Source of the DNA: a virus
Lineage: Duplodnaviria > Caudoviricetes
Strand: one strand, 5' to 3'
Length of the DNA: 39,078 nucleotides
Virus record (IMG/VR): IMGVR_UViG_3300020044_009858
Location: 1 to 39,078 of that record
Shown: piece after piece, positions 1 to 35,772 of the stretch
How positions within the stretch are numbered: the first letter of the stretch is position 1
Layout: every line of letters begins with the position of its first letter
Program-made: the position numbers and the translations under genes
Notes under the pieces: generated by a model
What the model was told of the DNA's origin: nothing
What the model saw: the letters and a program-made list of their open reading frames with translations, nothing else
Database searches by the model: none

Positions 1-11
1 GGCGTGATTCG

Positions 12-606: not shown

Positions 607-655
607 TTGCTCCGCGCTGCCGCTCCGCGAGGGGCGGCAGTAGGGAGCAATCAAG
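602..655 (+). promoter_or_regulatory. long intergenic hairpin, possible RNase III processing site
   Basis: CTTGATTGCTCC/GGAGCAATCAAG 12-bp stem, small internal loop, CTGCCGCTCC/GGGGCGGCAG stem, GCGA tetraloop, no U-tract. Confidence 0.55.
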
Positions 656-678
656 CTCCAACAACCAAAGGAAAAACA

Positions 679-1190: not shown

Positions 1191-1354
1191 ACAAATACGA
1201 TGCGCAATACGAGATGCTCATGGAGATAGTCGCCCTTCGGGAAGCATGCCAAAAAGACATGAACATCCTTATTGAAGAGCTTGAGGCACGGCGCGACATT
1301 GAGCGCCTCAAGGTGAAGCTTGAGGACGGAGGTCACTCTGGGGAGGTCGCATGA
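1187..1354 (+). CDS. 55-aa helical protein missed by the ORF track (MNKYDAQYEML...GHSGEVA)
   Basis: GGAGG at 1176-1180, TTGA start/stop overlap at 1187-1190, ends in the third GGAGGTCGCATGA junction. Confidence 0.7.
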   Translation: MNKYDAQYEMLMEIVALREACQKDMNILIEELEARRDIERLKVKLEDGGHSGEVA

Positions 1355-1539
1355 GATGCGAGGACTTCCCCTGTTGCGGACATGGGGCGGGAGGCTGTCC
1401 GGACAGTCGTGGGCGCTTCCGGTGTACTTGTGGCGCTCCGTTGCCGCCTCGGGCGCGATACAGCATCTGCGCAAGCTGCATGAAGCGAGCGCAGCGGGAC
1501 GACGACGACGACCCCGAAAGGTTTGACCACGAGGATTGA
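1351..1539 (+). CDS. Cys-rich small protein with acidic tail
   Basis: MRCEDFPCCGH, CTC, CASC and DDDDD; SD plus ATGA overlap. Confidence 0.7.
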   Translation: MRCEDFPCCGHGAGGCPDSRGRFRCTCGAPLPPRARYSICASCMKRAQRDDDDDPERFDHED

Positions 1540-1552
1540 CCTCGCAGCCATC

Positions 1553-1592
1553 AAGCCCCCGCCGGAGCAATCCGGCGGGGGTTTTTTGTTTT
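1553..1592 (+). terminator. rho-independent terminator of the + strand cluster
   Basis: CCCCCGCCGGA-GCAA-TCCGGCGGGGG followed by TTTTTTGTTTT. Confidence 0.9.
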
Positions 1593-1655
1593 CGGACGCT
1601 CTAGGATTGGCTGTGGCGCGTTTTTCCGGCGCGGTTGGTATGGCGATACCCCCCC

Positions 1656-1692
1656 AAAAGCAGAAAGCCCCCCGCCGCTTTTGCGGGGGGGG
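1656..1692 (-). terminator. probable terminator of the DUF932 gene
   Basis: CCCCCCGC/GCGGGGGG stem followed on the - strand by CTTTCTGCTTTT. Confidence 0.6.
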
Positions 1693-1732
1693 GGTGGGGG
1701 GTGGAAGGGAGGAGCGCTGGGAGCGCTGCTGG

Positions 1733-2863: not shown

Positions 2864-2953
2864 AACTATTGGTGCTTGTAACCCAAGCGGGGAGCGTGTT
2901 GCGACAGTGTGTTTTCAATGTGAAAACCTTATCAACCGCAATCCGCTGCCCAG

Positions 2954-10484: not shown

Positions 10485-10673
10485 ATGGAAGCTCAACGCA
10501 TTAGTATTCGTTTAAATGAACAAGAACTAGCCCAATTCCGCTCATTGTCCGGAACTACGGACGCAGAGCGGTTTCGCATACTTCTTAAAGTTTATGCTGC
10601 CGCCAAAGTGGAAGTTGATTTGGACGATACAATTAAAAGCGATAAGCGGATTGGTCGGAAGCGGAATTCATAA
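10485..10673 (+). CDS. ribbon-helix-helix (CopG/Arc-like) transcriptional regulator
   Basis: QRISIRL beta-strand, NEQELAQFRSL helix, G-T-T-D-AERFRILL helix. Confidence 0.65.
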   Translation: MEAQRISIRLNEQELAQFRSLSGTTDAERFRILLKVYAAAKVEVDLDDTIKSDKRIGRKRNS

Positions 10674-10956
10674 GTTTTCGTATTTTCCGGCTCCACATTG
10701 GGTCTTGAGCGTACCGCTTGCCTAAAAAGTCTAAATAGTCTTTTTTTGCACCTGCTTTATTCCAATCCCTAAATGCGTGTTCTATGGTGTTTTTACACCA
10801 TTGTCTGGCTTCTGGGTAGGTCAACCTACGCTTGGAATGTATTCCGTAAGGAAAGCGCGTATTTTGACCACCTTCTTGAGTGTAAATGGCATTTAGCAGC
10901 TTGGTTTCGTATTGCGGTGTAAAGAACAATGCGGCAGCTAACACAATGTTTGTCAT
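10633..10956 (-). CDS. small lysozyme-fold muralytic enzyme, putative endolysin
   Basis: AIYTQEGG (candidate catalytic Glu), YGI, FLGKRYAQDPMW; hydrophobic N-terminus. Confidence 0.55.
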   Translation of the reverse strand: MTNIVLAAALFFTPQYETKLLNAIYTQEGGQNTRFPYGIHSKRRLTYPEARQWCKNTIEHAFRDWNKAGAKKDYLDFLGKRYAQDPMWSRKIRKLMNSASDQSAYRF

Positions 10957-20125: not shown

Positions 20126-21406
20126 TTAAATCCCACCAGTTGAAGTGCTTTTAGCAACAGTTTGTCCGCTTCCAAATCCTTTAATTCCGGCGGAAGCTAA
20201 ATTTAAAGCCCCAGACATTCCAGCCATCCACGGGTTTGGCTGGTTCATTGAGGCTTCGTATCCGGTTAATGCGGCTTGAGAGCCTTGTTGACCAGCGCCC
20301 ATATTGTAAGACGGAAGCGCAGAAGATTGGGCAATTGGCGTCGAACCAGCACTAGACAATGAAGAAAACTGGCTTTGTGGCGTTTTTCCGCTGTAATAAT
20401 CAGCAAGATTTTTAAGGTTTTGCTGTTCTGCACGATACGCAATATCGTCCGGCGTTTCTCCGGAAGCCAACCAATTCATGCCAGCACCAACATTTTCGCG
20501 TTGTCTTTGACTGCCAGCAAATCCAGTTGTTAATGCTTTTGAATAATCGGCAGGAGCAGAATAATCGCCTCTGGCAGACGTAGCTTGAGCAACGGCAGTA
20601 TCAAGCATAGATTGTTCTTCCGGAGTTAAAGCAGACCCAGCAGCCACTTTTTCTTGAACTTGTCTGTTTAATTGTTCTGCAACAGGGCTTTGCGGGGGGT
20701 TTTTAATCTGTTCTTGTATTTTGCTGTAAAGAGCCTCCCTAGCGGCAAATTTTTGCGGGTCTGCTTGTTTTTCTTGTTCAAGAGCAGCGGCAATAAATTG
20801 AGGGTCGTATTTCTTGCTTGTTTCTAATTGCCCTTTAGCCAAATCAGTCATTATTTTGCCTTGAATATCGGCTTCTCCAATTCCAGTAAAATCTGCTATT
20901 GCTTGAGATTCTCCAACAATTTTTCCTTTGGAATCTTTGTAAACGCGAGAGTCTGGTTGAACTCCAACAAGTTGTTTTTTTAAAGCTTCAATTTGAAGCG
21001 GAGCGTACATATCATTACTTTTAGACAACGCATCTATTTGTTTTTGAATTTTGGCAATGTATTCATTTGAATCTCCAAAATCAGTATAGCCATATTTTAG
21101 CATTTTTCCGCCAAGCTCTGCCTGTGCTTGCATACCCCTAACAGAAGGAAGCATTTCTGCCTGTAATTGAGCCATTTTACGGCTAGAAGCGTTTAAATCT
21201 GGGCTGCTTGGGGAAAACGCACCAGCCGCAGAAGCGACAGACATTCCAAGTCCTGCAACGCCAACGCTAGCAGAAATTGCCGCAATTGATGCAGCAGACA
21301 ACCCAAACGTATTAAAGCGTGGCTCTACAAACAAAGATTGTTCTTTGGTTATAATTGTCTCTCCGCGATAACTAAAATAATTTTTACGGATGTTCATGTG
21401 CATCAT
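20126..21406 (-). CDS. ejection/pilot protein paralog A with N-terminal leader and Gly/Ala/Ser hydrophobic segment
   Basis: FGLSAASIAAISASVGVAGLG; Q/A-rich; collinear similarity to 21857-22900. Confidence 0.7.
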   Translation of the reverse strand: MMHMNIRKNYFSYRGETIITKEQSLFVEPRFNTFGLSAASIAAISASVGVAGLGMSVASAAGAFSPSSPDLNASSRKMAQLQAEMLPSVRGMQAQAELGGKMLKYGYTDFGDSNEYIAKIQKQIDALSKSNDMYAPLQIEALKKQLVGVQPDSRVYKDSKGKIVGESQAIADFTGIGEADIQGKIMTDLAKGQLETSKKYDPQFIAAALEQEKQADPQKFAAREALYSKIQEQIKNPPQSPVAEQLNRQVQEKVAAGSALTPEEQSMLDTAVAQATSARGDYSAPADYSKALTTGFAGSQRQRENVGAGMNWLASGETPDDIAYRAEQQNLKNLADYYSGKTPQSQFSSLSSAGSTPIAQSSALPSYNMGAGQQGSQAALTGYEASMNQPNPWMAGMSGALNLASAGIKGFGSGQTVAKSTSTGGI

Positions 21407-21857
21407 AAATTGGCAAAGCTTTGTTTTCTAATGTATTTTCTTCAGGATTATAAATTACATCTTTTTCAATTTCTTCCAAATTAGTTTTATTTGTTGGATG
21501 AAACGTAGTCCATTCACAATCTTCGTGAATAAAAATAACTCGCCTAGTACCAACTTTGGTAATGCCTTTGTGCGGAGCTTCAATAATTTGTTCTCCAATT
21601 CCTTCAATCCAAACAGAAACTTTGCCTTTTGTAATAACGTAAGGATGTTCTGTCTTGTGAATTTTAGAAACAACCACTGTTCCCGCTGGCATTTTAATTG
21701 TCCGAATGTACATATTTGGGACAAATTCATGCGTTAACGGCAATTCAACTTTAGGCAATTCTTTAATAAATTTAGCAAATTCACTAACGGCACGTTGACT
21801 AGGCGTGTTCATAAGCCCAGCAACGTATTCGTTAGTTGTTTGAACTGACAAATTCAT
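21384..21857 (-). CDS. cupin-fold protein
   Basis: HEF..NMYIRTIKMPAGTVVVSKIHKTEHPYVITKGKVSV...GTRR...TTFH double-stranded beta-helix pattern. Confidence 0.75.
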   Translation of the reverse strand: MNLSVQTTNEYVAGLMNTPSQRAVSEFAKFIKELPKVELPLTHEFVPNMYIRTIKMPAGTVVVSKIHKTEHPYVITKGKVSVWIEGIGEQIIEAPHKGITKVGTRRVIFIHEDCEWTTFHPTNKTNLEEIEKDVIYNPEENTLENKALPIYDAHEHP

Positions 21858-22901: not shown

Positions 22902-23360
22902 TTATTGGTTTCCTTTCATAATTCTTGGCAATATTTTGTCCGACAAACAAACAAGTTTATTGTTTCTATATGTAAATATTGAGACTGGTTTGTTTTTAAA
23001 AAGCTTTTTTACAACAATTGGGTGAATTTTTTTAAAACAATCCATTGTTCCAAAAATGTCCCCGTAAAAAATTGAATCCCCAGTGTTTTTTGAAATCCAA
23101 GAAAATTGAGGCTTATTGTTTTCGTATTTTTCTTCAATGTGTTCTTTCCAATCAACCCAATAAAATATAGCCATTTTAATTTTATTGTCTTCTATATCTA
23201 AAATTAATTTGTCAGTTAACAAACAAAATAACACATAATTGTAAGCTTGTTCCGGCGTAAATTGAGCAAACGACGATTTGCCAATATTTGCCATGCAAAA
23301 ATCCACAATGTCCCAAACATGGTCTGCAACAGTGTATTTTTGTTTTAATGCAGTATTCAT
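22902..23360 (-). CDS. possible GNAT/HlyC-like acyltransferase-fold protein
   Basis: IFYWVDW...E...FSW...TGDSIFYGDIFG resembles the HlyC W..G..LW..D pattern; position equivalent to T7 gp13. Confidence 0.4.
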   Translation of the reverse strand: MNTALKQKYTVADHVWDIVDFCMANIGKSSFAQFTPEQAYNYVLFCLLTDKLILDIEDNKIKMAIFYWVDWKEHIEEKYENNKPQFSWISKNTGDSIFYGDIFGTMDCFKKIHPIVVKKLFKNKPVSIFTYRNNKLVCLSDKILPRIMKGNQ

Positions 23361-24973
23361 GCGGCGGGGTCTCTTATAGACTTCATAAATGCCGAAGCCA
23401 TTATGTTTCTAATTTCAAACCAGCCAGCAGTGCAAGAAATTTTAAAATAAACTTCATTGCAATATCCAAGCCCTTCTAAACCGCGATAAACTTGAACCGG
23501 AGAAAAAGATTCTAATTGAAACGGCAAAATGTCAGTGCCAAGAATGTCCCCTGTTCCAGTAATAGAATTGTTCCAATCGTCAACGTCAGCCAAATCAAAT
23601 ACAGCATTAAATAAAACAGTTGCGTCTCCTTTGTTAAACCTAAACAAAGCAGCACGCATTTTTTTATTTGCATCAAAATTGCCAAAAATAAAAGACCTAG
23701 TATCTAATTCACAAGGAATATCAACTCCATTGTCTTGGTAAGTTGTATTTATGTCTTCTAATACAACGGCATCTTTCCATTTATTAACATAGCCTTTTGT
23801 GGCGTTGACGCTTCCATCGCCAACATACAATTCAACAGTGTTATTAAATCTTGTTACACACGCGCTTTCAGCGTTTACGTTAGTCCAATAACCCGTCCAT
23901 TGGGCTATTCTTCCATTCCAAACAAGCGCGTAATTGTTAAATGTGGAGCTATCAAGCGGAACAAAAAAAATGGCTAAATTGCGGTATTTTACAGCTTTAA
24001 TGCTTTGAGATTGCGACCAATTAATTCGGTCAATAAGCGGTTGAATTGGCAAACTTAATGGCGAAGTAAGCTGATATTGACCTGCCGCAGCTTGCATCCG
24101 CTGAAGGCTTTGAACGCCATCTTGAGACATAAACAGCAAATCGTTTTGATATACGCACCATGCGTTTTTGCCAACACATCCAACCCCAGAACCAACTAAA
24201 TCTCCTTGTTCTTGAGCAGACCAATTTGCGATTGGGTTGCTTGCGCTTGTATTGGCAGATGTCATGTTTAACAGCCAAACAGAATTTTCTTTTAATACGG
24301 CAACATTTGCGTTTTGCATTGCGGCAAGCGCAACAATTGCCTGACCATCTCCATTGCCAATTCTTGTAGATTGGGTTGATAAATCCCAATTAGATGTTCC
24401 TGCGGATTTTGGAGCAAAATCCAACATATGGCTAAAAAATATTGTATCCGGATAAGCCGGATTTCCGGACGCCAACATCCGTCCGGTTGACCAACAAAGA
24501 ATAGAAACGCCATTTAAAAACGTTGAATCAGCAGAAGTGTACGGCGTAAACGTTGTTCCATCAAAAAATTTTGGATAAGACTGACCATCCGTAATCATTA
24601 ATTTATCAACGCCTTGTTCCATTGATACATCAACAATTGAATTTGTAAAAGTTTGAGATAAATCAGCCCAATTTGTATTGTCCCAACTGTAAAGCTTTCC
24701 ATTTTCTGCAACCAATAATTTAGAATAAGAAGCTTTATTGTAATAAAACATTCCTTGAACAGCGCTTGGAGAAGTAACAATTGTTGAAAAACTGGTTCCG
24801 CCAACGCCAGCGGCAAGGTCAAATCCAGCCCTAGTGCGACAAGCAAAATTGTCTTTAACAACAACATTTTGCATAAGAGAAGACTGATTGTCTCCAATTT
24901 CAGAAGCGGGGCGATACATATCAACCCCACCACCAAAGTTTCTTATGCGGTCATATTGTCTTGGGCTTGCCAT
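23357..24973 (-). CDS. tail nozzle/head-closure protein (P22 gp10 or tail tubular B-like)
   Basis: NFGGGVD start, beta-propeller-like repeats, GVGCVG, LLFMSQDGV, LSLPIQP; synteny. Confidence 0.75.
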   Translation of the reverse strand: MASPRQYDRIRNFGGGVDMYRPASEIGDNQSSLMQNVVVKDNFACRTRAGFDLAAGVGGTSFSTIVTSPSAVQGMFYYNKASYSKLLVAENGKLYSWDNTNWADLSQTFTNSIVDVSMEQGVDKLMITDGQSYPKFFDGTTFTPYTSADSTFLNGVSILCWSTGRMLASGNPAYPDTIFFSHMLDFAPKSAGTSNWDLSTQSTRIGNGDGQAIVALAAMQNANVAVLKENSVWLLNMTSANTSASNPIANWSAQEQGDLVGSGVGCVGKNAWCVYQNDLLFMSQDGVQSLQRMQAAAGQYQLTSPLSLPIQPLIDRINWSQSQSIKAVKYRNLAIFFVPLDSSTFNNYALVWNGRIAQWTGYWTNVNAESACVTRFNNTVELYVGDGSVNATKGYVNKWKDAVVLEDINTTYQDNGVDIPCELDTRSFIFGNFDANKKMRAALFRFNKGDATVLFNAVFDLADVDDWNNSITGTGDILGTDILPFQLESFSPVQVYRGLEGLGYCNEVYFKISCTAGWFEIRNIMASAFMKSIRDPAA

Positions 24974-24974
24974 A

Positions 24975-25952
24975 TTAGTAAGGACTAGATTTCATGTTCC
25001 AGCTTGCTCCAAAATATTCATCTCCGCCAAACCCAGATTCTGGCATAATGCGAGAATTGTATGCGGCTTGAACAGTTTCTTCTTCAATTAACATTTTTTT
25101 AAGAGTATTAGCGTATTCAAGGCAATCCCTTGATTCTTGCGTTCCTCCGCGCTCATCGCGCAAAAGCATATCATAACAAACCAATTCCATTAAAACGCCG
25201 TCCATTCCGTTTACGGCAGGGTAATCTGTGTCTAATGTAAAACTGGGGGTTGTTTGTTTGCCAAGTACTCTTATTTCGTAAGAAACGTCAGGTTTATAAA
25301 GAAATTGAACGCGCTGGCTTTTAGGCAACGTAACATCGTTAGCGCCAAGCGTTACAATAACATTTGAATTAGAATCAACAAAACTAACAGTTCCTTGGGT
25401 AACGGGTTTAATAGCAGACACTAAAGATTCTATTGAACCAGTTGTTAGACCAGCAGCAAGAGCAACAGTTGTTTTTGAAACGCTAACATTGTCTGCTCCA
25501 ATAATGCTATAAGTCAAAGAAACACCAGCATCGCCAGCATTTGAATATTGAATGTTTAAATTCTGTGCTGTGTCAAAATCCCACAAAACAGAAGATAACG
25601 TCATAAAATCCGTTGGATTTCCAGTTTTAATAAACTGGTCTTGGTCAACGCGATAATACAACATTGGGCGCTCAACGTTTAATTTGCCTTTATCTGTTCT
25701 AGCAGCAATTACTTGAGCAATAGTTGGCGGCAAAATAAGGATGCCCTTTGTCGGCAAAAACGAAGAATTGGTAGTATATCCGCCATTAGGGTCAATTGGA
25801 ACAACCCATTCACACAAAGAATCTTTCCACAAAAAAGACCGCCACAATTGGTCGTGCCGCATTGTAAGAAAAGATTTACAAGTGGCAATATCCCTGTCTT
25901 GAACAAGACCAGTTCTTTGACCAATTATTGATGCAATTTCAGAAAGATTCAT
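24975..25952 (-). CDS. head-tail adaptor (tail tubular A-like)
   Basis: likely start MNLSEIASIIGQRTG at 25952; helical ends with beta-rich middle; precedes the nozzle gene. Confidence 0.65.
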   Translation of the reverse strand: MNLSEIASIIGQRTGLVQDRDIATCKSFLTMRHDQLWRSFLWKDSLCEWVVPIDPNGGYTTNSSFLPTKGILILPPTIAQVIAARTDKGKLNVERPMLYYRVDQDQFIKTGNPTDFMTLSSVLWDFDTAQNLNIQYSNAGDAGVSLTYSIIGADNVSVSKTTVALAAGLTTGSIESLVSAIKPVTQGTVSFVDSNSNVIVTLGANDVTLPKSQRVQFLYKPDVSYEIRVLGKQTTPSFTLDTDYPAVNGMDGVLMELVCYDMLLRDERGGTQESRDCLEYANTLKKMLIEEETVQAAYNSRIMPESGFGGDEYFGASWNMKSSPY

Positions 25953-25953
25953 A

Positions 25954-27318
25954 TTATCGGTAATAACATTTAGGTTTCCATTGTGCTTCAAGTCCGTTGG
26001 CGTTGTTGGCTCCATCTTTTTGAAGAATAGTTCCAATGGTTGCGTTTTTAACAATGTAAATGTTGCTTGAATTGTACCAAAAAGAAAAAATTCTAGTTCC
26101 ACTAGCTACAAAAGAAGAAATGTCAACTTCGTCGTTTGTTACATAAGTAGCATTTGTTGCAACGCACACCATTGACCACCTTACATAAGAAGGCGTGTAT
26201 CCTAAATTGTGAGCAAAATTAGTTGTCCAAGTTCCAGCTGTTATGTTGTTTGTGCCAGTAAAAATATAATTTGTGGGGGCGTAATTTGTTACAAAATATT
26301 GAGCTAAAGCGTTAAGCGTCAAAGTTGTGTTAGTTCCTTGAATTGTTGAAAACAACGGAAAAGTGTCGTTTGTAGAAAGCGTTGCAAGTCCATTGGTTCC
26401 AGTAGCCGCATTGCTAACAATAATTGAAGTAATTGGAAAATTGGTGACGTATCCAAACCCATTGGTCGTTGAATTAGTGCCGTAAACTAACCACGGGTAA
26501 AACAACTGCTTGTTAACATACGGAATATTGCGGTTTGTGCCTAAATCAGAAGCAAAAATTGTCTCTAAATTAGACAAACTTTGTTGATAGGGTATTCCGT
26601 TTGTTCCCCACCAAAGAGTTTGGGGATGATTGTTGGTCTGAAACCCATAAAAAGAGCCAGTCCAATTTGAAAGAACGTATCCATTTGTCCCGCCATAACT
26701 TAAATAAGAAACATTAATATTAGAAGATGCGTTTTTATAAAGGTTAGTAATTGATACGCTTCTTAAATCGTTATTAGTCTGACTGTAAAACATCATTAAA
26801 TCAGTAGATTTTGGAATATCTCCCGCAAGACCTGTAAGCATTAACGGGTTTGCAATAATGTTAGCATAAGTAACTTTGTACAAAACCCCACCAGAACTCA
26901 TTAAAAAATAATCAGCATTAGCCGGAAAGCTGTGCGTTGTTTTTGCCGTAATAAAAGTAGCCGGAATAGTGGCGTTATCCACTAATTGATGAAGTTGCGA
27001 TGCATTAATTTTTTGACCATCAACAAACGTAATACCTCTGGTAATGTCGGTTCCTCCATAACAAGCCATTGTAAATGCAAAAAACAGCCCAATAGCGGCA
27101 GGTTTAGACCATTGTTTTTTAATAAAGTCTACAGACATACCAAAATGTTTAGATATTTCTTTGGCGCTTATGGGGCGCTTTGCTTTGCGTTCTCCTTTTT
27201 CAATTTCAGCTAAAGCTTTAGGAACTTTGGCAAACACAGAGTTTGGGTCAACGGCTGGATTTCCGCATTTGCCAAATGGAGGGCGACCACTATGTAAAAT
27301 TTCAATAAGCTTGCTCAT
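25954..27318 (-). CDS. tail fibre-like protein with basic/HTH-like N-extension and signal-like hydrophobic segment
   Basis: DITRGITFVDGQKINASQLHQLVDNAT fibre-like segment, FAHNLGYTP C-terminal motif, 18 TN dipeptides. Confidence 0.65.
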   Translation of the reverse strand: MSKLIEILHSGRPPFGKCGNPAVDPNSVFAKVPKALAEIEKGERKAKRPISAKEISKHFGMSVDFIKKQWSKPAAIGLFFAFTMACYGGTDITRGITFVDGQKINASQLHQLVDNATIPATFITAKTTHSFPANADYFLMSSGGVLYKVTYANIIANPLMLTGLAGDIPKSTDLMMFYSQTNNDLRSVSITNLYKNASSNINVSYLSYGGTNGYVLSNWTGSFYGFQTNNHPQTLWWGTNGIPYQQSLSNLETIFASDLGTNRNIPYVNKQLFYPWLVYGTNSTTNGFGYVTNFPITSIIVSNAATGTNGLATLSTNDTFPLFSTIQGTNTTLTLNALAQYFVTNYAPTNYIFTGTNNITAGTWTTNFAHNLGYTPSYVRWSMVCVATNATYVTNDEVDISSFVASGTRIFSFWYNSSNIYIVKNATIGTILQKDGANNANGLEAQWKPKCYYR

Positions 27319-27518
27319 GGATAATTAGTAATATTTAACGAATTTAGACGATGAAGAATATCCTGCATGACAACAGGCGGAACAATGTAATTTGTTCCGT
27401 CATACCTAACTTCACGATTTGCTGGTATTACTATTATTCTTGTCTTGCAACCCATCGTGCAAGATAACATTAATAGTGTCAATGTCACCATCAACAATTG
27501 CTTTGTCAGCTTTTTCAT
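27315..27518 (-). CDS. o-spanin-like lipoprotein
   Basis: MKKLTKQLLMVTLTLLMLSCTMGC signal with lipobox-like Cys; overlaps the 3' half of the i-spanin-like gene in another frame. Confidence 0.65.
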   Translation of the reverse strand: MKKLTKQLLMVTLTLLMLSCTMGCKTRIIVIPANREVRYDGTNYIVPPVVMQDILHRLNSLNITNYP

Positions 27519-27624
27519 TTGCCTTATTTTGCAATGCTTTTGGCGTATTGTTGGCGGCAATTCCGGCAAGAATAACTGGCAACAACATACAAATAATTTG
27601 TATAATGCCGCCAATTATTGTCAT
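27412..27624 (-). CDS. i-spanin-like protein
   Basis: N-terminal TM segment then short helical domain; directly after the holin. Confidence 0.6.
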   Translation of the reverse strand: MTIIGGIIQIICMLLPVILAGIAANNTPKALQNKANEKADKAIVDGDIDTINVILHDGLQDKNNSNTSKS

Positions 27625-27630
27625 AAAGCA

Positions 27631-27855
27631 TTAAGCTTTAGGAGCATTTGCCGTTGCTTGTTTGTGAATAATAGACCAAACGGCAGTAATCACGGCAATA
27701 ACACTGCCAATAAATTGAGGGTCAGTAAGTTGCGCAGTCAAAGAAACAATTTGGTCTTGAGTAACTTTGCCTTTAGCAACAAGAATACCGCCACCAAAAG
27801 CCAACAATGTACGCAAAATGCCTTGCAACGTGTTTATATTAAGCCAATTAAACAT
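27631..27855 (-). CDS. putative holin
   Basis: QGILRTLLAFGGGILVAKG...IGSVIAVITAVWSIIHK, two TM segments; start MFNWL at 27855. Confidence 0.7.
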   Translation of the reverse strand: MFNWLNINTLQGILRTLLAFGGGILVAKGKVTQDQIVSLTAQLTDPQFIGSVIAVITAVWSIIHKQATANAPKA

Positions 27856-27856
27856 A

Positions 27857-28036
27857 TTAATATCCTTTTTTGTCTTGTATGTATTTGTTTCTATAATACC
27901 GCGCTGTGTAAAAACCAACTACAATTGCCATGATTCCGGCGCTAATTTGAACAAGCAAATTTACTATTGGTAAAAATGACGTAAAAGCCGATATTGTTGT
28001 AACAGCGGTTCCAAATAGTCCTTTATGGTTGTTCAT
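27857..28036 (-). CDS. 59-aa holin/antiholin-like membrane protein missed by the ORF track
   Basis: MNNHKGLFGTAVTTISAFTSFLPIVNLLVQISAGIMAIVVGFYTARYYRNKYIQDKKGY; ATGA-coupled start. Confidence 0.6.
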   Translation of the reverse strand: MNNHKGLFGTAVTTISAFTSFLPIVNLLVQISAGIMAIVVGFYTARYYRNKYIQDKKGY

Positions 28037-28269
28037 AATTTATCTTTTGGTTCTTCTGCGGCACGAACAGACATTCTGCCACAGACAATACCGACCAATG
28101 CTCCAACAACAGTTTGAAACGCAGGGTCGATAACTTTGAAAATTTCGTTGTTATCTATGCTGCTGACAAACAATCCAATCATCAGCGAGATAACGACGCA
28201 TAGCACGACGCTGCTTAAGACGCAGATGGCTATGAACGTAATGGCTTCGTTGATTTTGAACGATTTCAT
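28033..28269 (-). CDS. two-TM membrane protein
   Basis: two hydrophobic segments flanking IDNNEIFKVIDPAFQTVVG. Confidence 0.65.
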   Translation of the reverse strand: MKSFKINEAITFIAICVLSSVVLCVVISLMIGLFVSSIDNNEIFKVIDPAFQTVVGALVGIVCGRMSVRAAEEPKDKL

Positions 28270-28538
28270 TATTTGACGCTGATGTAGACAGTAAATGTGC
28301 CGTCAAGATTCTTGCGGACATTAACGCCCTGCAAATTGTCCACTGTGATTGGCACATTAGCACTGATGCCGCCAGCCTCAACAGCAGTAATGATTCCAGC
28401 AAACTGTTCTTTAGTCAGTTGGATGGGTTGCACCACAGTAATGATGTTGGTCTTCGTGGTCACATTGATGCTAGGAACATCTTGTGCGTTGATAACCCCC
28501 GCAATAGCGAGGCCGATAGCGATGATTGATTTTTTCAT
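28269..28538 (-). CDS. small secreted protein
   Basis: MKKSIIAIGLAIAGVINA-Q signal peptide. Confidence 0.65.
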   Translation of the reverse strand: MKKSIIAIGLAIAGVINAQDVPSINVTTKTNIITVVQPIQLTKEQFAGIITAVEAGGISANVPITVDNLQGVNVRKNLDGTFTVYISVK

Positions 28539-28541
28539 AAA

Positions 28542-29345
28542 TTAGTATGTAAACGAACCGTAAGGCAAAGCAGCACCGTTGTTGTATAGTTTGTTAATAT
28601 CCGTTGTAGACAAACACCTATTCCAAAATCCCCATTCATCAAGTTTTCCTGCAAAACTACTGTTAGAACCTGGGGAGCCGGTTCCGCCAGTGCCGTTGTT
28701 AAATAAATCTATTTCAACCGCCGTGTCGTAAAGCGAAACAGAAGTGCTGATTCCAACAAGTGTTCCATTAATATAACCAGACACAGTTGCCGTGGAACTG
28801 TCATAAGTCATGGTCAAATATACCCAAGTGTCTGTTGGATAAGTATCTGTAGAAATAACACCAGTACCGTCTGAATTTTTTTCAAAGAAAAGAAAACCAT
28901 CGTCAGCAATAAAAATTTGAGGAGAGCCATTGTATGTGTTAATGGATACAAGAATTTCTTGAGCAATTCCTATCTGGGTTGAATCAATATAAGCCCATCC
29001 ACTTAAACTCCAGCTTCCTGTAGTGTTTATTGTTGGATTAGCGCAATAAAGAACGTCATAAGAATTAACTGTTGCGTAAATAGCAGCCAAATTTATTTTA
29101 CCCGAAGCGTTATCAATACCGTCAAGATTAACTGGATCTACAAAGACATTGTTTGCATTAACTTGACTTACGCGATTTTGACCGTTTGATTCTTCGAGTT
29201 TCCAATACGCTTGCAACGAATTAAGCAATCCGTTTTGAGGAACAATGTACGGCATAGCCCCATTCACAAACTTCCCGCTTACAAACTTGCTACCTCCAAA
29301 GCAAGTAACAGTTGAGAGCAATAGGATGGCAATAAGTTTGTTCAT
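28542..29345 (-). CDS. LamG/concanavalin A-like domain protein with signal peptide
   Basis: LQAYWKLEE, WSLSGW, TWVYLTMTYD, YINGTL, FAGKLDEWGFWNRCLS...LYN; MNKLIAILLLSTVTCFG. Confidence 0.85.
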   Translation of the reverse strand: MNKLIAILLLSTVTCFGGSKFVSGKFVNGAMPYIVPQNGLLNSLQAYWKLEESNGQNRVSQVNANNVFVDPVNLDGIDNASGKINLAAIYATVNSYDVLYCANPTINTTGSWSLSGWAYIDSTQIGIAQEILVSINTYNGSPQIFIADDGFLFFEKNSDGTGVISTDTYPTDTWVYLTMTYDSSTATVSGYINGTLVGISTSVSLYDTAVEIDLFNNGTGGTGSPGSNSSFAGKLDEWGFWNRCLSTTDINKLYNNGAALPYGSFTY

Positions 29346-29923
29346 AGACGCCAGCAGACAACATTTGTAACCGTGACAGCAGCAGAATTAGCAGCATTGG
29401 TTTCAAACTTAAACGTAGCACCAACGCTCATTGGAATACAAAAAGGCTTGTAGGTCATGCCAGATGACCCGTTTGCGTGAGCAAGTCCAAACTGGAGCGC
29501 GTAGCCTACGCCGCTATTTGTGTAGCGCAACACACAACCGGAACTGCCGCCAGCACTTACAGCAGGTATGGCAACGGAACCGACAAGCAAACAACGCTGT
29601 CCAGAATTGGTATAAAGCGTTTGAATTGTGTATGTGTTAGTTGGATTGCTAGATGTGTTGATAGCCGCCGTGTTAGTGTCAATGTTAGACACATACGCAT
29701 TAACACCATTCGTAAACAACGTCACATCAAACACGTTTGTGCCTGTGCCGGTAGCGACAAAGTTAGACGCATAAGCTGTGTTGGTCACAAGGATTCCGGC
29801 AAAGTTAGTACCGCCACCACCGCCAGCTCCAACAGTTCCGTATGAACCAGTTTGACTGCCAAATTGTGCGCGAACAACAACCGCACTAATTAAGCAAATA
29901 ATTAGTGATAGTTTTAATTTCAT
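29342..29923 (-). CDS. secreted TN-rich beta protein, fibre/spike-like
   Basis: MKLKLSLIICLISAVVVRA-Q signal, poly-Gly linker, 10 TN dipeptides. Confidence 0.7.
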   Translation of the reverse strand: MKLKLSLIICLISAVVVRAQFGSQTGSYGTVGAGGGGGTNFAGILVTNTAYASNFVATGTGTNVFDVTLFTNGVNAYVSNIDTNTAAINTSSNPTNTYTIQTLYTNSGQRCLLVGSVAIPAVSAGGSSGCVLRYTNSGVGYALQFGLAHANGSSGMTYKPFCIPMSVGATFKFETNAANSAAVTVTNVVCWRL

Positions 29924-29924
29924 G

Positions 29925-30266
29925 TTATCCTTTAATTACAATTACAATGCTTCCGGATGCAGATGCAATGGTTTTTGTTGCCGCTGTGCTAGACCAGCAA
30001 CAATAAACCCCCGTCATGTCGCAAGAGCGACCAAGCGTACCGCCAAGACCACCCAATACAGGAAAAGAAAATAAAGGAACAGCTCCCTCCGAAGGAGCGG
30101 TTGCAGTACCAGAAGGAATTTCGTGTACCTGCAAATAAAGCGTTCCGCCAGTGCTGTTAAAGCACAGAACGTCCATAAGCTTTTCAGGACGAACAACACT
30201 GTTTTCAGTTCCAAAGCGAGAAGCAACATTGCTTGCGTTGCCAATTACATGAGTGGCGTGATTCAT
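29925..30266 (-). CDS. small beta-rich virion protein, possible decoration protein
   Basis: FNSTGGTLYLQV...P..GAVP...TG...CWSST; downstream of the capsid gene. Confidence 0.55.
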   Translation of the reverse strand: MNHATHVIGNASNVASRFGTENSVVRPEKLMDVLCFNSTGGTLYLQVHEIPSGTATAPSEGAVPLFSFPVLGGLGGTLGRSCDMTGVYCCWSSTAATKTIASASGSIVIVIKG

Positions 30267-30273
30267 AATTTTA

Positions 30274-30684
30274 TTACATCATTCTGTTAGCAGCTTCTGA
30301 TTTCAACTGGGCAAATTCATCCATTTCTCCACCTTCCGGAGTTTCGGTATTGTATTCGCCAGTATCAGCAGTGCTTTCTTTTTCTTTGGTAACAGGCTTT
30401 CCATTGACACTTTCAACAAAAATATAAGCATTGTCACCCTCAATTTTAGAAACTTTACCTTCAATTTGAAATTGAACCATATCACCAGATTCAGGGCTAG
30501 CCATCTGGTCATCTTCGGCAGGGCTGGCAAGAGACGAAACGGGAACACAAACTTCCATAGAAGTAGAATTTTCCATTCCTTTAGCCCCCATTGCTTTTTC
30601 CATATTTTTGCCAGCGTGCATTTTAGCTGGTTTAGGAGCCATATCATTTTCAGCGCCCATATCCATCATGTCTTTTTTTGCCAT
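30274..30684 (-). CDS. Met-rich acidic hypothetical protein
   Basis: ORF after the capsid hairpin; central beta segment PESGDMVQFQIEGKVSKIEG. Confidence 0.6.
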   Translation of the reverse strand: MAKKDMMDMGAENDMAPKPAKMHAGKNMEKAMGAKGMENSTSMEVCVPVSSLASPAEDDQMASPESGDMVQFQIEGKVSKIEGDNAYIFVESVNGKPVTKEKESTADTGEYNTETPEGGEMDEFAQLKSEAANRMM

Positions 30685-30699
30685 ATATAATTTAAGTTA

Positions 30700-30729
30700 G
30701 GGGCGGCAGGGATTAAACCCTGCCACCCC
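30700..30729 (-). terminator. hairpin after the major capsid gene (weak terminator or stabiliser)
   Basis: GGGGTGGCAGGG-TTTAAT-CCCTGCCGCCCC with only a weak U-tract. Confidence 0.6.
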
Positions 30730-30745
30730 GATTAACTACCAAGTT

Positions 30746-31855
30746 TTACTGGAACGAAGACTGACAACGGAGAGCGACAACGTGAGGAACGTCAGACGCA
30801 TCGCTGGTCAGTTTGAGGATGCTGCCGTAGTACACTTTCCAGCTACCAGCAACAACCTGATTGTAGCGGTCAGATTTGTCGGGCTGGTCAAGGATGGTGA
30901 TTTTAGGAGCAGACGGGTCGCCGCCAGCAACGTTGGTGGACAGTTTGACAGTGCCGTAAGCATCGTCGCCAATGTACAAACAGCTAAAAATACCGCCCGT
31001 GGAATCAAAAGTTCCATAAGTGGCATTTTCAGTCCACGGATTGGTGTGGCTAATAAACGCACCGCCATCAAGCTCAAAGTCTTCATACTTATAAAGCATT
31101 TGATTATCGCGCTGCGTCATAGCAGAAACCAGCGTTGCGTCTTGGCGAATATCAAACATCACCTGCGGAGGCGTAAGCACAGGATAAGCTTTGCCATCCG
31201 GAGCTTTAACATCGTTAGCGCGAAGCTGCGTAAGCGCACGGAGATGTTCCAAGCGCGTAAACTTGCTGTTAGCGCGGGTCAAGCCGTGCAGCGTGCTAAA
31301 ATCATTGGCGCTGTTGCCAGTGTTAACAACACCAGCAAAACGTTCAAAATAATTAGCAGAAGAAATGCCGTACGTCCCATTGCTGTTAAACAGCGTGGTC
31401 TGTGCAGCGCCCAAACCAAGAGCTTTAGCCTTGGCAGTGGTAGTCGCATCGCCCATCAGCGAGTTAGTAATAACTTGGTCAAGGTCAAGAGCAGCGTCCT
31501 TGCCCAGCGTCTTCATGTAAACCTGAAGCGTATCCAAAATATCCGTTGCACGGACAATATCAGAAATTTCAAAGTCATCACCACGCTGGTTCAAATAACA
31601 ATCCAGCGTGCCAACAGTGACAGTATCTTTGACAAGGTTCTGCACGCCTTCAGTAAGGTTCTGCACATAACCCTTACGAGCCTTACGAGCGCGGAAGAAA
31701 CGAATAGCCAAAAAGCCATTAGCCGGAGCCGATTTCTTGTCGGCAAACTGTGCCATGCGAAGGTTAAATTCAAGTTCCTTTAACAGTTCTTTGCTGAAGT
31801 ACACTTGCCGACGATTTGCAAAATCTGCCGGATTAGTTGTAGATGCCTGTGCCAT
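30746..31855 (-). CDS. major capsid protein (N4-gp56-like)
   Basis: LTEGV, ISD, DLDQVI, IGDDAYG, DKSDRYNQ...WK; follows the scaffold gene and precedes a hairpin. Confidence 0.88.
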   Translation of the reverse strand: MAQASTTNPADFANRRQVYFSKELLKELEFNLRMAQFADKKSAPANGFLAIRFFRARKARKGYVQNLTEGVQNLVKDTVTVGTLDCYLNQRGDDFEISDIVRATDILDTLQVYMKTLGKDAALDLDQVITNSLMGDATTTAKAKALGLGAAQTTLFNSNGTYGISSANYFERFAGVVNTGNSANDFSTLHGLTRANSKFTRLEHLRALTQLRANDVKAPDGKAYPVLTPPQVMFDIRQDATLVSAMTQRDNQMLYKYEDFELDGGAFISHTNPWTENATYGTFDSTGGIFSCLYIGDDAYGTVKLSTNVAGGDPSAPKITILDQPDKSDRYNQVVAGSWKVYYGSILKLTSDASDVPHVVALRCQSSFQ

Positions 31856-31881
31856 AAATAAATATTAAGTTATAGGAATAA

Positions 31882-32958
31882 TTAAGACATGACTGCCGCA
31901 TCAGAACGCAGGGCTTCAAACTGTTCTTCTGAAGACATGGCTTCAAAAGATTTATTGTTTTTAGGCAATTTTGTTACCCCACCAACTGGTGTCGGATTAG
32001 TCATTAAATTAAGTTCTTCCAGTTTAGATTTTGTTTCTTCTAGCTCTTTAGTCAAAATAGGTACACGGGCAGAAGCAGCTTCAGCGTTAGCAATACGAGC
32101 GCAATAATAAACAACAGCCGGAAGGTTTTCAATTTCAGGATGCTGTTGAATCATTTGCTTGTACAATTCGGCAGCAGATACTTGAACGCTGCTATTTTGT
32201 TTAGCAAATTCAGGAAAATCTATTGCCGCTTTTGAAATCCATTCCTTTTGCTGCGCAACAAATTGTTCTTTGTTTTGTTGTACAGTTTTAGGCGGATTGT
32301 TTCTAACGTATTCAGCAGATTTATAAGCAGCTTGAGCATCGCGTTTGGCAAATTTTGCCTCATCCCTCAATGTTTCAGCTTTATCAAAGTCCCCATTTTT
32401 GTCTGCTTTATCAGCTTCTTGCTCTTTTTGTTCAGCAAGCTGTAACTGTTTAGCGGCAAACAATTCATACTTTTCAGGAGTAGGCTTTGTAGCTTCTTGT
32501 TCTGCTTTAAAAGCAGCAACCTCTTTATTAAAGGCTTCAATTTTTTTCTGTTGTTGCAATTCAAAGTTCTTTTCAGCTTCTTTAATTGCATCCCAACGAA
32601 TTAAACGTTTGCCTAAATCAGCCCCATACTTGCTTTGCGTTAATTTAAGATAAGCATTAAATTTCTTTTTCTCATCTTCATTAAGCGCAACAGGCTGTTC
32701 TTCAACAGGTTTTTTGCTTTCTTTAACTGGCTTTTCTGCGTCTGCCCGTGCATCTATCTTTTCTTTAGGGCTAGTTTTGGATTCAACCTTTTCAGCCGTA
32801 GGCGGGGTTTTTTCACCTACTTCATTACCCTGTTCTTCAATTTTAGGTTCAACAGATTCATTGGCTGTTTCCACAGAGGCTTGCTCTGCTTCCATCCTAG
32901 ACAATTTTTGTTCTGCCGTTTCTTCAATTGAGCTTTTTTCTGTTAGGTCTTTTTCCAT
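31882..32958 (-). CDS. capsid scaffolding protein
   Basis: E/K/A-rich coiled coil ending FEAMSSEEQFEALR; immediately upstream of the capsid gene. Confidence 0.75.
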   Translation of the reverse strand: MEKDLTEKSSIEETAEQKLSRMEAEQASVETANESVEPKIEEQGNEVGEKTPPTAEKVESKTSPKEKIDARADAEKPVKESKKPVEEQPVALNEDEKKKFNAYLKLTQSKYGADLGKRLIRWDAIKEAEKNFELQQQKKIEAFNKEVAAFKAEQEATKPTPEKYELFAAKQLQLAEQKEQEADKADKNGDFDKAETLRDEAKFAKRDAQAAYKSAEYVRNNPPKTVQQNKEQFVAQQKEWISKAAIDFPEFAKQNSSVQVSAAELYKQMIQQHPEIENLPAVVYYCARIANAEAASARVPILTKELEETKSKLEELNLMTNPTPVGGVTKLPKNNKSFEAMSSEEQFEALRSDAAVMS

Positions 32959-32960
32959 TT

Positions 32961-33323
32961 TTAATGCGTAAAGGCGAGTTCATTTATAACGGGCATCTCA
33001 TCTTCGCCAAAACGAGGCTCGGTTGTTGCATCTTGAACGGGGGATGCTCCCGAAATTTGAGACAAACTTTCAAGCCAGTTTACTGCGTCTGAAAATCCAG
33101 CAGCCCTATCTGGCGAAATTGCTTTTTTAGTACAGGCGTCTAATGCCAATTTACACTCAAGCGCTCTTGCGCGAGCCATTAAAACCCTGCCTTCTTCGCT
33201 ACTTAAAAACTTTTTAAGACCAGTAGCATAGTCCGGCGTCCAGTCTGGAGCAAAAGATGGCGCGGCAATAAGGCTTTTTTTACGCCTAATCAACCGCGCC
33301 ATCAATTGTTTAACCATACTCAA
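32961..33323 (-). CDS. hypothetical protein upstream of scaffold
   Basis: W...LKKFLSSEEGRVL...RAAGF helical pattern. Confidence 0.6.
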   Translation of the reverse strand: MSMVKQLMARLIRRKKSLIAAPSFAPDWTPDYATGLKKFLSSEEGRVLMARARALECKLALDACTKKAISPDRAAGFSDAVNWLESLSQISGASPVQDATTEPRFGEDEMPVINELAFTH

Positions 33324-33953
33324 TTACGGGAGAAACGTACCAGCAACACCATTAATGCCACCATTAGACGTATAAGCCGTTGAAACCAGCAACGGCTCAC
33401 CACGGGAACCAAACCCAATATACTGACCAAGCAAAGAAATGGTAGTTGCTTTGCAAGGAACAGTAAAATTAGTAGTGTATCCATACACTTTGTCGCCAGA
33501 AACAACAGCATAAGTAGGAGCGCTATTTACAACAAAGTTAGTAGCAGTAACGCTAGCAACAATACGCACTTCATAAATATCGCTAGCAGAATGACGAATA
33601 ACAACCGGATTGCCAGCAACAATGCCATTAGTCTGACTGTTTACAACGTTAGTATTAGCATCCGTTGAAAAATTAACAGTAATGGTTGTGGTTGAGTTAG
33701 ATTGGCAAAGATTGCCAGTTGTGCTTTTCCACACTTGGACAGCGCCAGTAGCGCTATCATTAGTAGCAGAAAGATAAGTAATAGCAGGAGTAAGACCGCC
33801 AACGCTATTAATGCTTCCAACAGCAAAATTAGTTGTGCCAAACGTAAATGAACCAGCCGCTGAAAATGCCGAAACAGTATTTGGAGAAAGCTGCGCATTA
33901 GAGGTTACGCTGGTCAAAATAGCCAGCCCGATAATTGTCATTAGTTTTTTCAT
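33324..33953 (-). CDS. secreted TN-rich beta protein
   Basis: start MKKLMTIIGLAILTSVTSNA-Q at 33953; 6 TN dipeptides. Confidence 0.7.
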   Translation of the reverse strand: MKKLMTIIGLAILTSVTSNAQLSPNTVSAFSAAGSFTFGTTNFAVGSINSVGGLTPAITYLSATNDSATGAVQVWKSTTGNLCQSNSTTTITVNFSTDANTNVVNSQTNGIVAGNPVVIRHSASDIYEVRIVASVTATNFVVNSAPTYAVVSGDKVYGYTTNFTVPCKATTISLLGQYIGFGSRGEPLLVSTAYTSNGGINGVAGTFLP

Positions 33954-34482: not shown

Positions 34483-35772
34483 TTAAGAAGGTTCAAGAAC
34501 AATTTCAGGGTCTGGAATTTCTAAATCAGTAAATTTAATTCCTTGTTCTTGTTCAGATTCAATTTCTCGTATTACATCTGCAAGCGCTTCTACATCTGCA
34601 TTAGCTCCATCCGGAAGCTCGTCCGACAATTTATTAATCTTTTCAAATACTTCTTTGGGAGTATTTCCAGTAGCTCTTAACCAGCCAATTGTTGAGCTAT
34701 CGTCTACTGGTGGATACCACAATTGCCCTTTGTTTTCGCAACATTGTTGAGAAAGCAGCTCTTTTTTAATTTCATCACTTATAACGCACGTTTGCCATAC
34801 GTTTGTATCGCCTTTAAGCGTAACCATACATTCAGCAGAAAATTTAAAACCATAATCAATCTCAACAAATTCACCCCTAGCGCCATGATAAATAACTTCT
34901 GCCGTATTTTTGGCTGCTAAAAATGTATTTGTTGACGGAAGACCACCACGAGTTGTTGCATCAATAAAAAAGTTTTCTTTTTTAGTAACGCGAACCTCCA
35001 TACTCCATTGGTTTCTATAACCAACTTCATTTAAATATGGGCTAAAAGCGTTCATTATTGGCATTAATTGCTCCGGCATTTCAGATTTATGCGTAACGGC
35101 AGCAAAATAAGCAGCATCTTTGCGTTCAATGCCATGAAGCATCATGGTAGGAAATTGACCATCAACACAATAAGTGTCAGCACCAATTTCTAAATCTGTT
35201 TCAATTTTAGAAAAACAAATAAAATTAATACATTCTTTAATTCCACCAAATTTAACAGCCCAAGCATCAAGATTTTGCCAATCTTCATTCCAGCTTCTCC
35301 AATGGCTTGTTTCCCACGAACCGCGCCATTTGCTTACTTTAATCCAAATATCTTTTTTATTTTTAAGAAAAGCAGAAAGGTTTGAAACGCCTTGAATAAT
35401 GTCGTATTTAGGCACATCAAGGTTTAATTCGTGTAATTTTTTGAGAAAATGCACTCTGTCTTGTTCAAGAAGCATCCCTTTATGGCTTCCCCATACTGGT
35501 TTGTTTTGAGAGCGCAACTCATCTTGCATCCCGCAATGACGAATATCAGGAAAAACAAAACAATCTATTTGATTTTTATAGCCCCAAAGGTCATCTACGC
35601 AATGTATGTCAGGCATCCCGTCTCCAATAATAGCCTCATCAATGCGGTCTTTTCTATCAATAGGAGTAGCGTAAAAAACTCTAGCACCAGACATTGCAAG
35701 CCTTCTTGCAAGCCCAACAAACAAGCCAAAATGGTCTAATACACCGAATGTTTTGCTAGATAAATCGTTCAC
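34483..35772 (-). CDS. PurD (GARS)-like ATP-grasp ligase
   Basis: PVWGS...LEQDR, VPKY, IWIK, EIG.D, YRNQWSMEV, FIDATTRGGLPS parallel PurD IFGP..LEGSK, VIKA, VIEFNCRFGDPE. Confidence 0.7.
   Translation of the reverse strand: MNDLSSKTFGVLDHFGLFVGLARRLAMSGARVFYATPIDRKDRIDEAIIGDGMPDIHCVDDLWGYKNQIDCFVFPDIRHCGMQDELRSQNKPVWGSHKGMLLEQDRVHFLKKLHELNLDVPKYDIIQGVSNLSAFLKNKKDIWIKVSKWRGSWETSHWRSWNEDWQNLDAWAVKFGGIKECINFICFSKIETDLEIGADTYCVDGQFPTMMLHGIERKDAAYFAAVTHKSEMPEQLMPIMNAFSPYLNEVGYRNQWSMEVRVTKKENFFIDATTRGGLPSTNTFLAAKNTAEVIYHGARGEFVEIDYGFKFSAECMVTLKGDTNVWQTCVISDEIKKELLSQQCCENKGQLWYPPVDDSSTIGWLRATGNTPKEVFEKINKLSDELPDGANADVEALADVIREIESEQEQGIKFTDLEIPDPEIVLEPS

What the first reader, a model, noticed from the sequence alone, without database searches (positions are those of the whole stretch)
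25954..33953. Virion-module proteins carry Sec-type signal peptides and are studded with an order-specific Thr-Asn motif: possible periplasmic maturation/glycosylation pathway for phage appendages
Seen: five genes inside the morphogenesis operon encode signal-peptide-like segments: 33953 (VTSNA-Q), 29923 (VVVRA-Q), 29345 (VTCFG-G), 28538 (GVINA-Q) and the fibre at 27318 (internal, MACYG-G). Three of them are very TN-rich by hand count: 18 TN versus 1 NT in the 454-aa fibre (all after residue ~180), 10 TN in 193 aa, and 6 TN in 209 aa. The o-spanin also has 2 in 67 aa. The capsid has 4 in 369 aa and the nozzle 3 in 538 aa. Established: tailed-phage fibres normally fold and assemble in the cytoplasm; the canonical N-glycosylation sequon is N-x-S/T, not T-N; Gln at +1 after SPase I cleavage is the Bacteroidota pyroglutamate Q-rule. 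Inference: these proteins are exported, modified at [T/S]-N by a host periplasmic enzyme, and then either join virions at or after lysis or decorate the infected cell surface. My unverified recollection is that TN enrichment marks secreted proteins of some Verrucomicrobiota, which would make this a host signature exploited by the phage.
Basis: partly seen in the sequence, partly recalled or inferred. Interest (0 to 1): 0.85.

Follow-up and report, generated by a model that had tools for sequence, protein, structure and literature searches.

The report
Exported, Thr-Asn-rich podophage tail fibre
In this uncultured short-tailed phage and its relatives the tail-fibre gene carries a predicted export signal exactly where sister phages start the same protein, and only the signal-bearing versions are packed with Thr-Asn pairs, so the fibre is likely matured and probably modified outside the cytoplasm before it would join the virion.

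Summary
Observation largely confirmed. TN is far above composition in the fibre (18 vs 4.9) and the 193-aa protein (10 vs 2.1). It is marginal in the 209-aa protein and absent from the LamG and 89-aa proteins.

The new evidence is comparative. Among 121 homologues of the fibre's N-terminal domain, 29 start at Met1 (TN 0.8x) and 82 have a signal-like segment ending at that position (TN about 3.1x). Met1 forms lie just after a nozzle homologue, and members of both forms carry tail-collar domains. A complete relative has one copy, signal-bearing. TN is the top dipeptide and is aperiodic; N-x-S/T is not enriched, and Gln at +1 is a minority.

Best reading: a Sec-exported fibre, probably modified at T-N by a host envelope enzyme, that docks at lysis. 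Export, modification and docking are inferred: there was no SignalP, the host is unidentified and the Verrucomicrobiota idea is untested. The scan noted exported fibres, and TN twice, on other DNA. My literature searches found no paper describing either.

The parts
25954..27318 (-). Tail fibre gene, 454 aa: N-terminal extension + signal-like segment + family N-terminal (predicted virion-attachment) domain + TN-rich shaft and tip (18 TN)
27100..27318 (-). Fibre residues 1-73: basic (15 K/R vs 7 D/E) extension with a helix-turn-helix-like end; homologous to a stand-alone 90-aa gene just upstream of the fibre in complete relative G009
   Evidence: sequence; (28% identity, E 7e-6)
27055..27099 (-). 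Fibre residues 74-88: internal hydrophobic stretch and predicted SPase I site (C-Y-G|G)
   Evidence: heuristic, no SignalP
26839..27054 (-). Fibre residues about 89-160: conserved N-terminal domain that starts at Met1 in sister phages; TN-poor
33324..33953 (-). 209-aa signal-bearing protein (signal 33894-33953), 6 TN; low-confidence model of a beta-sandwich with an inserted six-stranded barrel
29925..30266 (-). 113-aa protein without signal, conserved directly before the signal-bearing block; possible capsid-side base for the exported appendages (inference)
29342..29923 (-). 193-aa signal-bearing protein (signal 29867-29923); conserved 13-residue mature N-terminal tag shared with unrelated C-terminal domains in relatives; 10 TN
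28542..29345 (-). 267-aa signal-bearing LamG lectin-fold protein (signal 29295-29345); near-invariant signal + tag shared with glycine-rich and PKD+LamG variants; 0 TN
28269..28538 (-). 89-aa signal-bearing protein (signal 28485-28538), 1 TN
27631..28269 (-). Three small membrane proteins; one is a holin (PF23987)
27315..27624 (-). Predicted overlapping i-spanin (27412-27624) and lipoprotein o-spanin (27315-27518, 2 TN); its stop overlaps the fibre start (ATGA)
   Evidence: spanin call is from architecture
23357..26015 (-). Context: predicted adaptor (24975-26015) and nozzle (23357-24973), both without signal and not TN-rich; no gene between the nozzle and the next conserved gene, which is the slot where sister phages carry their Met1 fibre

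Best explanation
This phage lineage encodes its only fibre-family protein, and a block of variable appendage-like proteins, behind predicted Sec signal peptides; they are likely cleaved and folded in the periplasm, probably modified at Thr-Asn sites by a host envelope enzyme (most likely glycosylation), and would dock on finished virions when lysis merges cytoplasm and periplasm. Shown: the signal-like segment ends where cytoplasmic sister fibres begin; there is one copy per genome; TN is 3-fold enriched only in signal-bearing versions and is spared in the first 50 mature residues. Inferred: export, cleavage, the nature of the modification (O-linked on Thr somewhat likelier than N-linked on Asn), the host origin of the enzyme, and docking at lysis.
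For: 1. Same domain, two forms: 29 Met1 forms with TN 44 vs 55.1; 55 with a plain signal, 730 vs 231; 27 with extension + signal, 367 vs 123; Mann-Whitney p=1.4e-12 on 27 vs 80 proteins.
2. The family is a tail fibre: Pfam Collar in 3 Met1 members and 1 signal-bearing member, Mtd second domain in members of both forms (92 scanned). 57 of 59 distinct Met1 forms have a nozzle homologue upstream on the locus (gene order).
3. Replacement, not addition: one family match in each of 5 records at least 90% complete and in the window. In complete G009 the copy has a plain signal.
4. All 7 signal-clade loci have the fibre just before the adaptor, TN 140 vs 39.5 (hand sum), at 49-62% GC.
5. TN is the top dipeptide (1096 vs 353); NT 0.9x; N-x-T 390 vs 352; N-x-S 204 vs 241; first 50 residues 0.65x.
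6. TN excess recurs in unrelated signal-bearing folds of relatives: GDSL 16 vs 6.1, LamG 7 vs 2.1, 812 aa 22 vs 7.2, 604 aa 22 vs 4.4. T/N-rich tail-region proteins of unrelated phages sit at or below chance: 9 vs 12.5, 12 vs 12.3, 9 vs 11.2.
7. No glycosyltransferase family was hit among 33 window proteins or the G009 proteins scanned.
Against: - Signals are heuristic calls. A signal-like start also precedes one adaptor (L034) that has 0 TN and whose conserved Met lies 24 residues downstream, so false signals occur.
- The signal-bearing fibres are kin and may stem from one gain; no tree was built, so the p-value overstates independence.
- The Met1 loci were fetched with Met1-derived queries.
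- The window's LamG protein has 0 TN and the 89-aa protein 1.
- Cytoplasmic capsids show a small TN excess (4 vs 1.9; 6 vs 2.3).
- A cytoplasmic 157-aa gene matches PHROGs named 'short tail fiber' and 'tail fiber adhesin' (E 1e-30), although it looks cupin-like (E 0.17) and lacks the fibre domain.
- The window's own fibre has no Pfam or PHROG hit.
- The host is unknown, so no host TN signature or enzyme was shown.
Confidence: 0.5

Rival explanations
1. The fibre is exported and docks on virions, but TN is not a modification site. It is a structural or recognition feature of exported proteins in this host, such as a turn cap, a chaperone or secretion signal, or a metal or polysaccharide contact.
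For: No enzyme or mass shift is shown. Context beyond T-N is weak (Gly at -1 2.0x, Pro after N 0.42x). Some TN columns are conserved in the alignment.
Against: Strict order (TN 3.1x, NT 0.9x), many unrelated folds and linkers, absence from Met1 homologues and sparing of the N-terminal domain fit an enzyme sequon better.
Confidence: 0.2
2. The proteins are exported and probably modified but never join virions. They act on the infected or lysogenic cell as receptor-blocking decoys, superinfection-exclusion factors or adhesins, like Lom, Bor or Cor (recalled), and the virion adsorbs through its nozzle or another protein.
For: The block also holds outer-membrane barrels and lipoproteins in relatives. 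Several relatives are temperate. PMC10367356 (passages read) reads signal-bearing prophage genes as host-surface modifiers. The gene has left the post-nozzle slot.
Against: The N-terminal domain is kept in every signal-bearing copy and stays TN-poor. No second family copy exists in the complete genome. One signal-bearing member has a tail-collar domain.
Confidence: 0.22
3. The hydrophobic segment is an uncleaved or reverse-oriented membrane tether that holds fibres at the cytoplasmic face of the inner membrane, where they are added to virions; TN is a lineage quirk.
For: 27 of 82 signals are internal, behind a 55-110 residue extension, which resembles a signal-anchor.
Against: 55 of 82 are ordinary N-terminal signals with small residues at -3 and -1. 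The extension is basic, which favours N-in, C-out. TN is shared with barrels and lipoproteins that must be exported.
Confidence: 0.08

Closest known systems
T7-like podophage tail fibres, e.g. Legionella phage LME-1 (PMC12407071, passages read)
   Same: Portal, adaptor, nozzle, fibre and ejection-type genes; in LME-1 the fibre trimer contacts adaptor and nozzle.
   Different: The paper has 0 occurrences of 'signal peptide' or 'periplasm'. Here the fibre family domain follows a signal and the protein is TN-rich. No sequence match to any solved fibre was found.
Signal-peptide (Q-rule) genes of Porphyromonas gingivalis Nixviridae prophages (PMC10367356, passages read)
   Same: Phage genes predicted to use the host Sec system; some here also have Gln at +1.
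   Different: Those are of unknown function and read as outer-membrane modifiers. Here the exported protein is the fibre-family gene; Gln at +1 is 13 of 80.
Bacteroidota general O-glycosylation motif D-(S/T)-(A/I/L/V/M/T) (recalled) and O-OTase systems PglL, PglS, TfpO, TfpM (PMC12645811, table passage read)
   Same: A short order-specific motif confined to exported proteins.
   Different: The motif is T-N and matches none of the sequons in that table; no enzyme is identified.
Filamentous phage coat proteins pIII and pVIII (recalled)
   Same: Virion proteins routed through Sec.
   Different: Inoviruses assemble in the envelope without lysis; this is a tailed phage with holin and predicted spanins.
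Lom, Bor and Cor of lambdoid phages (recalled)
   Same: Exported proteins encoded among late genes.
   Different: They are not fibre-family proteins, and those phages keep cytoplasmic fibres.

Membership tests
Podophage tail fibre | N-terminal domain shared with tail-fibre proteins | tested here: met
   homologues by the N-domain carry Collar (4 of 92) or Mtd second domain; the window's protein itself has no Pfam or PHROG hit
Podophage tail fibre | Encoded next to adaptor or nozzle, one copy per genome | tested here: met
Podophage tail fibre | Trimeric fibre fold | tested here: inconclusive
   monomer model mean pLDDT 47; no usable fold match
Podophage tail fibre | Starts at Met1 without an export signal (cytoplasmic folding) | tested here: not met
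   signal-like segment precedes the domain
Podophage tail fibre | Present on the virion | not testable with these tools
   needs virion MS or cryo-EM
Sec/SPase I substrate | Basic n-region, hydrophobic h-region, small residues at -3 and -1 | tested here: met
   by eye and Kyte-Doolittle rule in 82 homologues; SignalP not available
Canonical N-glycosylation (PglB/AglB) | Excess of N-x-S/T | tested here: not met
   N-x-T 390 vs 352, N-x-S 204 vs 241
Bacteroidota Q-rule substrates | Gln predominates at +1 | tested here: not met
   13 of 80 aligned fibre starts; 3 of 5 window proteins have it
Beta-solenoid Asn ladder | Regular TN spacing in one repeat fold | tested here: not met
   fibre spacings 4-22, 193-aa protein 8-40 (positions); many unrelated folds
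Verrucomicrobiota-infecting phage with a host TN signature | Host genome carries the prophage and its exported proteins are TN-rich | not testable with these tools
   no Verrucomicrobiota genome could be reached; the idea is recalled only

The most novel reading that the evidence does not exclude
A widespread podophage lineage builds its host-recognition gear in a second, periplasmic assembly line. The tail fibre and tag-docked head appendages are Sec-exported, glycosylated by an undescribed general bacterial system that reads Thr-Asn, and snap onto virions only at lysis.
Probability: 0.35. Interest if true: 0.93.

Novelty: new variant of a known kind. Interest (0 to 1): 0.8.

Why it matters
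Tailed-phage morphogenesis is taken to be wholly cytoplasmic (established knowledge). An exported fibre would mean a compartment-split assembly path that is completed at lysis, and virions wearing host-made modifications. The T-N signature also points to a possibly undescribed bacterial protein-modification motif. It gives a sequence handle on the host: look for the lineage whose exported proteins are TN-rich. The paired Met1 and signal-bearing forms of one domain make the switch directly testable.

Tried and rejected
Structure.
- Complex prediction of the adaptor with three copies of fibre residues 90-200 gave no answer (score 0.00); it is evidence neither way.
- The fibre monomer model was low confidence, and fold searches on it were uninformative.
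- The 209-aa model (pLDDT 57) gave no Foldseek hit at E<=0.001. Its barrel matches phage tail and tailspike barrels (Z 9.6, rmsd 1.7, 71 aligned; Z 9.2; Z 9.0) but also translation-factor barrels (Z about 6). The whole-chain match to the HFTV1 turret base is Z 5.4, rmsd 4.0. This is weak.
- The 209-aa and 113-aa families are not detectably homologous.

Host.
- One genome contig hit, in an Acidobacteriia MAG. Rejected as host evidence: 0 of 400 other Acidobacteriota genomes searched hold the capsid, and the longest frames of that MAG's 20 LamG loci show TN 74 vs 61.2 (hand sum, overlapping loci).
- The provirus integrase scan gave only 667 bases of flank with tRNA-Val(GAC).
- Cluster look-ups gave no organism names; Atlas taxa were uninformative; searches gave nothing on the host.

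Other searches.
- No GenBank phage match for the capsid or the fibre N-domain.
- Loci were unrelated phages sharing only a middle domain; they were used only as a TN control.

Literature. Listings showed no paper on exported tail fibres or a bacterial T-N motif. I read listings and abstract starts only, apart from passages of PMC10367356, PMC12407071, PMC12494034 and PMC12645811. Subscription papers are not covered and no supplements were opened.

Not done. The genome-wide signal vs non-signal tally and a tree of the N-domain were not computed, because the script machine was lost.
Full report
Setting. The window is a whole linear virus record, 64% complete. It has a T7/P22-like podophage gene set on the minus strand. 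Capsid (phrog_1357, E 7e-24) and holin (PF23987) are called by library hits. The nozzle matches records annotated 'phage stabilization protein' at 23-27% identity. Portal, adaptor, spanins and ejection proteins are called from weak hits, position and architecture.

Observation. All five signal-like segments are present. TN is significant in the fibre (18 vs 4.94 expected) and the 193-aa protein (10 vs 2.11), both p=0.0002. It is marginal in the 209-aa protein (6 vs 2.67) and absent from the LamG (0 vs 2.43) and 89-aa proteins (34 ORFs). Structural proteins without signals sit near chance. TN spacings are irregular (4-22 residues in the fibre), so this is not a solenoid ladder.

What the fibre is. 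The window's protein has no library hit, so I searched with residues 90-179 against 1.84 billion representatives and got 121 hits. By what precedes the domain: 29 start at Met1, 55 have a plain hydrophobic signal, 27 have an extension plus signal, 6 have short or truncated leaders and 4 are internal matches. The signal ends where the Met1 forms begin. Of 92 homologues scanned, Collar (PF07484) was found in 3 Met1 members and 1 extension+signal member, and Mtd second domain in members of both forms (PHROG tail-fibre hits). One search gave 75 distinct matches in viral loci: 59 Met1 forms, 7 signal forms and 9 internal matches. 57 of the 59 have a nozzle homologue upstream, and L064 shows the order adaptor, nozzle, fibre, small gene, ejection genes. 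These loci were fetched with Met1-derived queries, so their number is not a frequency. In the window and G009 the post-nozzle slot is empty, and the fibre lies before the adaptor, at the end of a block of signal-bearing and lysis genes. Each of five records at least 90% complete has one family match, as does the window. In the complete genome G009 that copy has an ordinary 18-residue signal. The exported form therefore replaces the cytoplasmic one.

TN follows the signal. TN observed over expected is 0.80 for Met1 forms and 3.15 and 2.98 for the two signal groups. One search compared 80 signal-bearing and 27 Met1 proteins; four were dropped as fragments or a probable truncation (P0061, P0109, P0096, and P0094, which has 14 TN and starts inside the domain). 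TN is the top dipeptide (1096 vs 353); 39% of Asn follow Thr, against 7% in Met1 forms. NT is 0.9x, SN 1.07x, N-x-T 1.1x and N-x-S 0.85x. The first 50 mature residues are spared (0.65x). By hand sum, Met1 loci give 132 vs 195 and signal loci 140 vs 39.5. The excess holds from 37-38% GC in the window's fibre region to 62% GC, so it is not a mutation bias. It recurs in unrelated signal-bearing folds of relatives, and TN often follows the predicted cleavage site directly in barrel proteins. T/N-rich tail-region proteins of unrelated phages show none. Limits: the fibres are kin and no tree was built; capsids show a small excess; the window's LamG has none, though its counterparts in L007 and G009 have 7 vs 2.1 and 5 vs 2.5.

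The internal signal. Residues 1-73 are homologous to a separate 90-aa gene directly upstream of the fibre in G009. They end in a helix-turn-helix-like motif and are basic. The start codon overlaps the o-spanin stop. The fused form thus reads as small cytoplasmic protein + signal + fibre, with N-in, C-out topology (inference). Similar fusions of a holin or HTH in front of an exported domain occur in relatives.

The other exported genes. The 193-aa protein begins its mature chain with a 13-residue tag that is kept in front of unrelated domains in three relatives. The LamG protein shares a near-invariant signal plus tag with glycine-rich and PKD+LamG variants. A constant tag with a swappable domain is the pattern of receptor-binding modules (established knowledge), and suggests docking on a fixed partner. 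A candidate is the 113-aa signal-less protein just upstream (inference). Relatives add barrels and lipoproteins to the block, so some members surely act on the cell envelope rather than on the virion.

Host and enzyme. The host was not identified. The single genome hit lies in an Acidobacteriia MAG, but 0 of 400 other genomes of that phylum searched hold the capsid and the MAG's LamG proteins are not TN-rich. The Verrucomicrobiota (Pedosphaerales-like) idea matches my own recollection but comes from no call. No glycosyltransferase family was hit in the window or in G009, so a modifying enzyme would probably be the host's.

Mechanism. Shown: signal position, single copy, motif statistics. Inferred: Sec export, SPase I cleavage exposing the N-terminal domain, modification at T-N, and docking when holin and spanin action mix the compartments. 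That tail appendages can be added last, even in vitro as for P22 tailspike, is recalled knowledge. I give this 0.5; export and docking without modification 0.2; export without joining the virion 0.22; a cytoplasm-facing tether 0.08. Against the main reading: the signals are heuristic, one adaptor has a probably false signal-like start, and a cytoplasmic cupin-like gene carries PHROG fibre names.

Comparison and novelty. It works like a podophage tail fibre and meets the sequence and synteny tests, but fails the Met1 (cytoplasmic) feature. It fails the canonical sequon and Q-rule tests. Signal-bearing phage genes are in print (PMC10367356, passages), but as genes of unknown function. My searches (listings only) showed no paper on exported tail fibres or on a T-N motif. 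Earlier notes of this scan report exported fibres on other DNA and TN excess twice; they are unchecked leads, not support. Verdict: real, a new variant of a known kind, interest 0.8.

Noticed in passing
window 34483-35772 (-): 429-aa ATP-grasp-like gene (weak PurK-type hit) between portal and scaffold; conserved in close relatives but not seen at that place in L031, L034 or G009; a possible peptide-ligating modifier of virion proteins.
   Followed up: no
window 10953-19190 (-): 2745-aa ejection-type protein with GNAT and beta-clamp-like domains, resembling a polyvalent protein.
   Followed up: no
L036:9539-10537; P0163; P0130: Fusions of a small cytoplasmic or membrane protein in front of an exported domain: holin + barrel, HTH + FN3-like, 269-residue extension + fibre.
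   Followed up: partly
window 21384-21857 (-): Cupin-like protein among the ejection genes that PHROGs name 'short tail fiber'; also in G009; probably a propagated misannotation.
   Followed up: partly
L034:16356-17834: Adaptor ORF with a signal-like 24-residue start ahead of the conserved Met, 0 TN.
   Followed up: partly
L045:438-512: A related provirus sits beside tRNA-Val(GAC), next to its integrase.
   Followed up: partly
window 1-2900: GC rises to 58-59% against about 40% elsewhere, over small plus-strand ORFs and a 376-aa minus-strand ORF; possibly a recently gained module or a chimeric end.
   Followed up: no
window 10633-10956 (-): 107-aa possible endolysin (weak glucosaminidase hit) with a hydrophobic N-terminus, far from the holin and spanins.
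   Followed up: no
L037:18667-19065: Acb2/Tad1 hairpin-domain gene (anti-defence) in complete relative G009.
   Followed up: no
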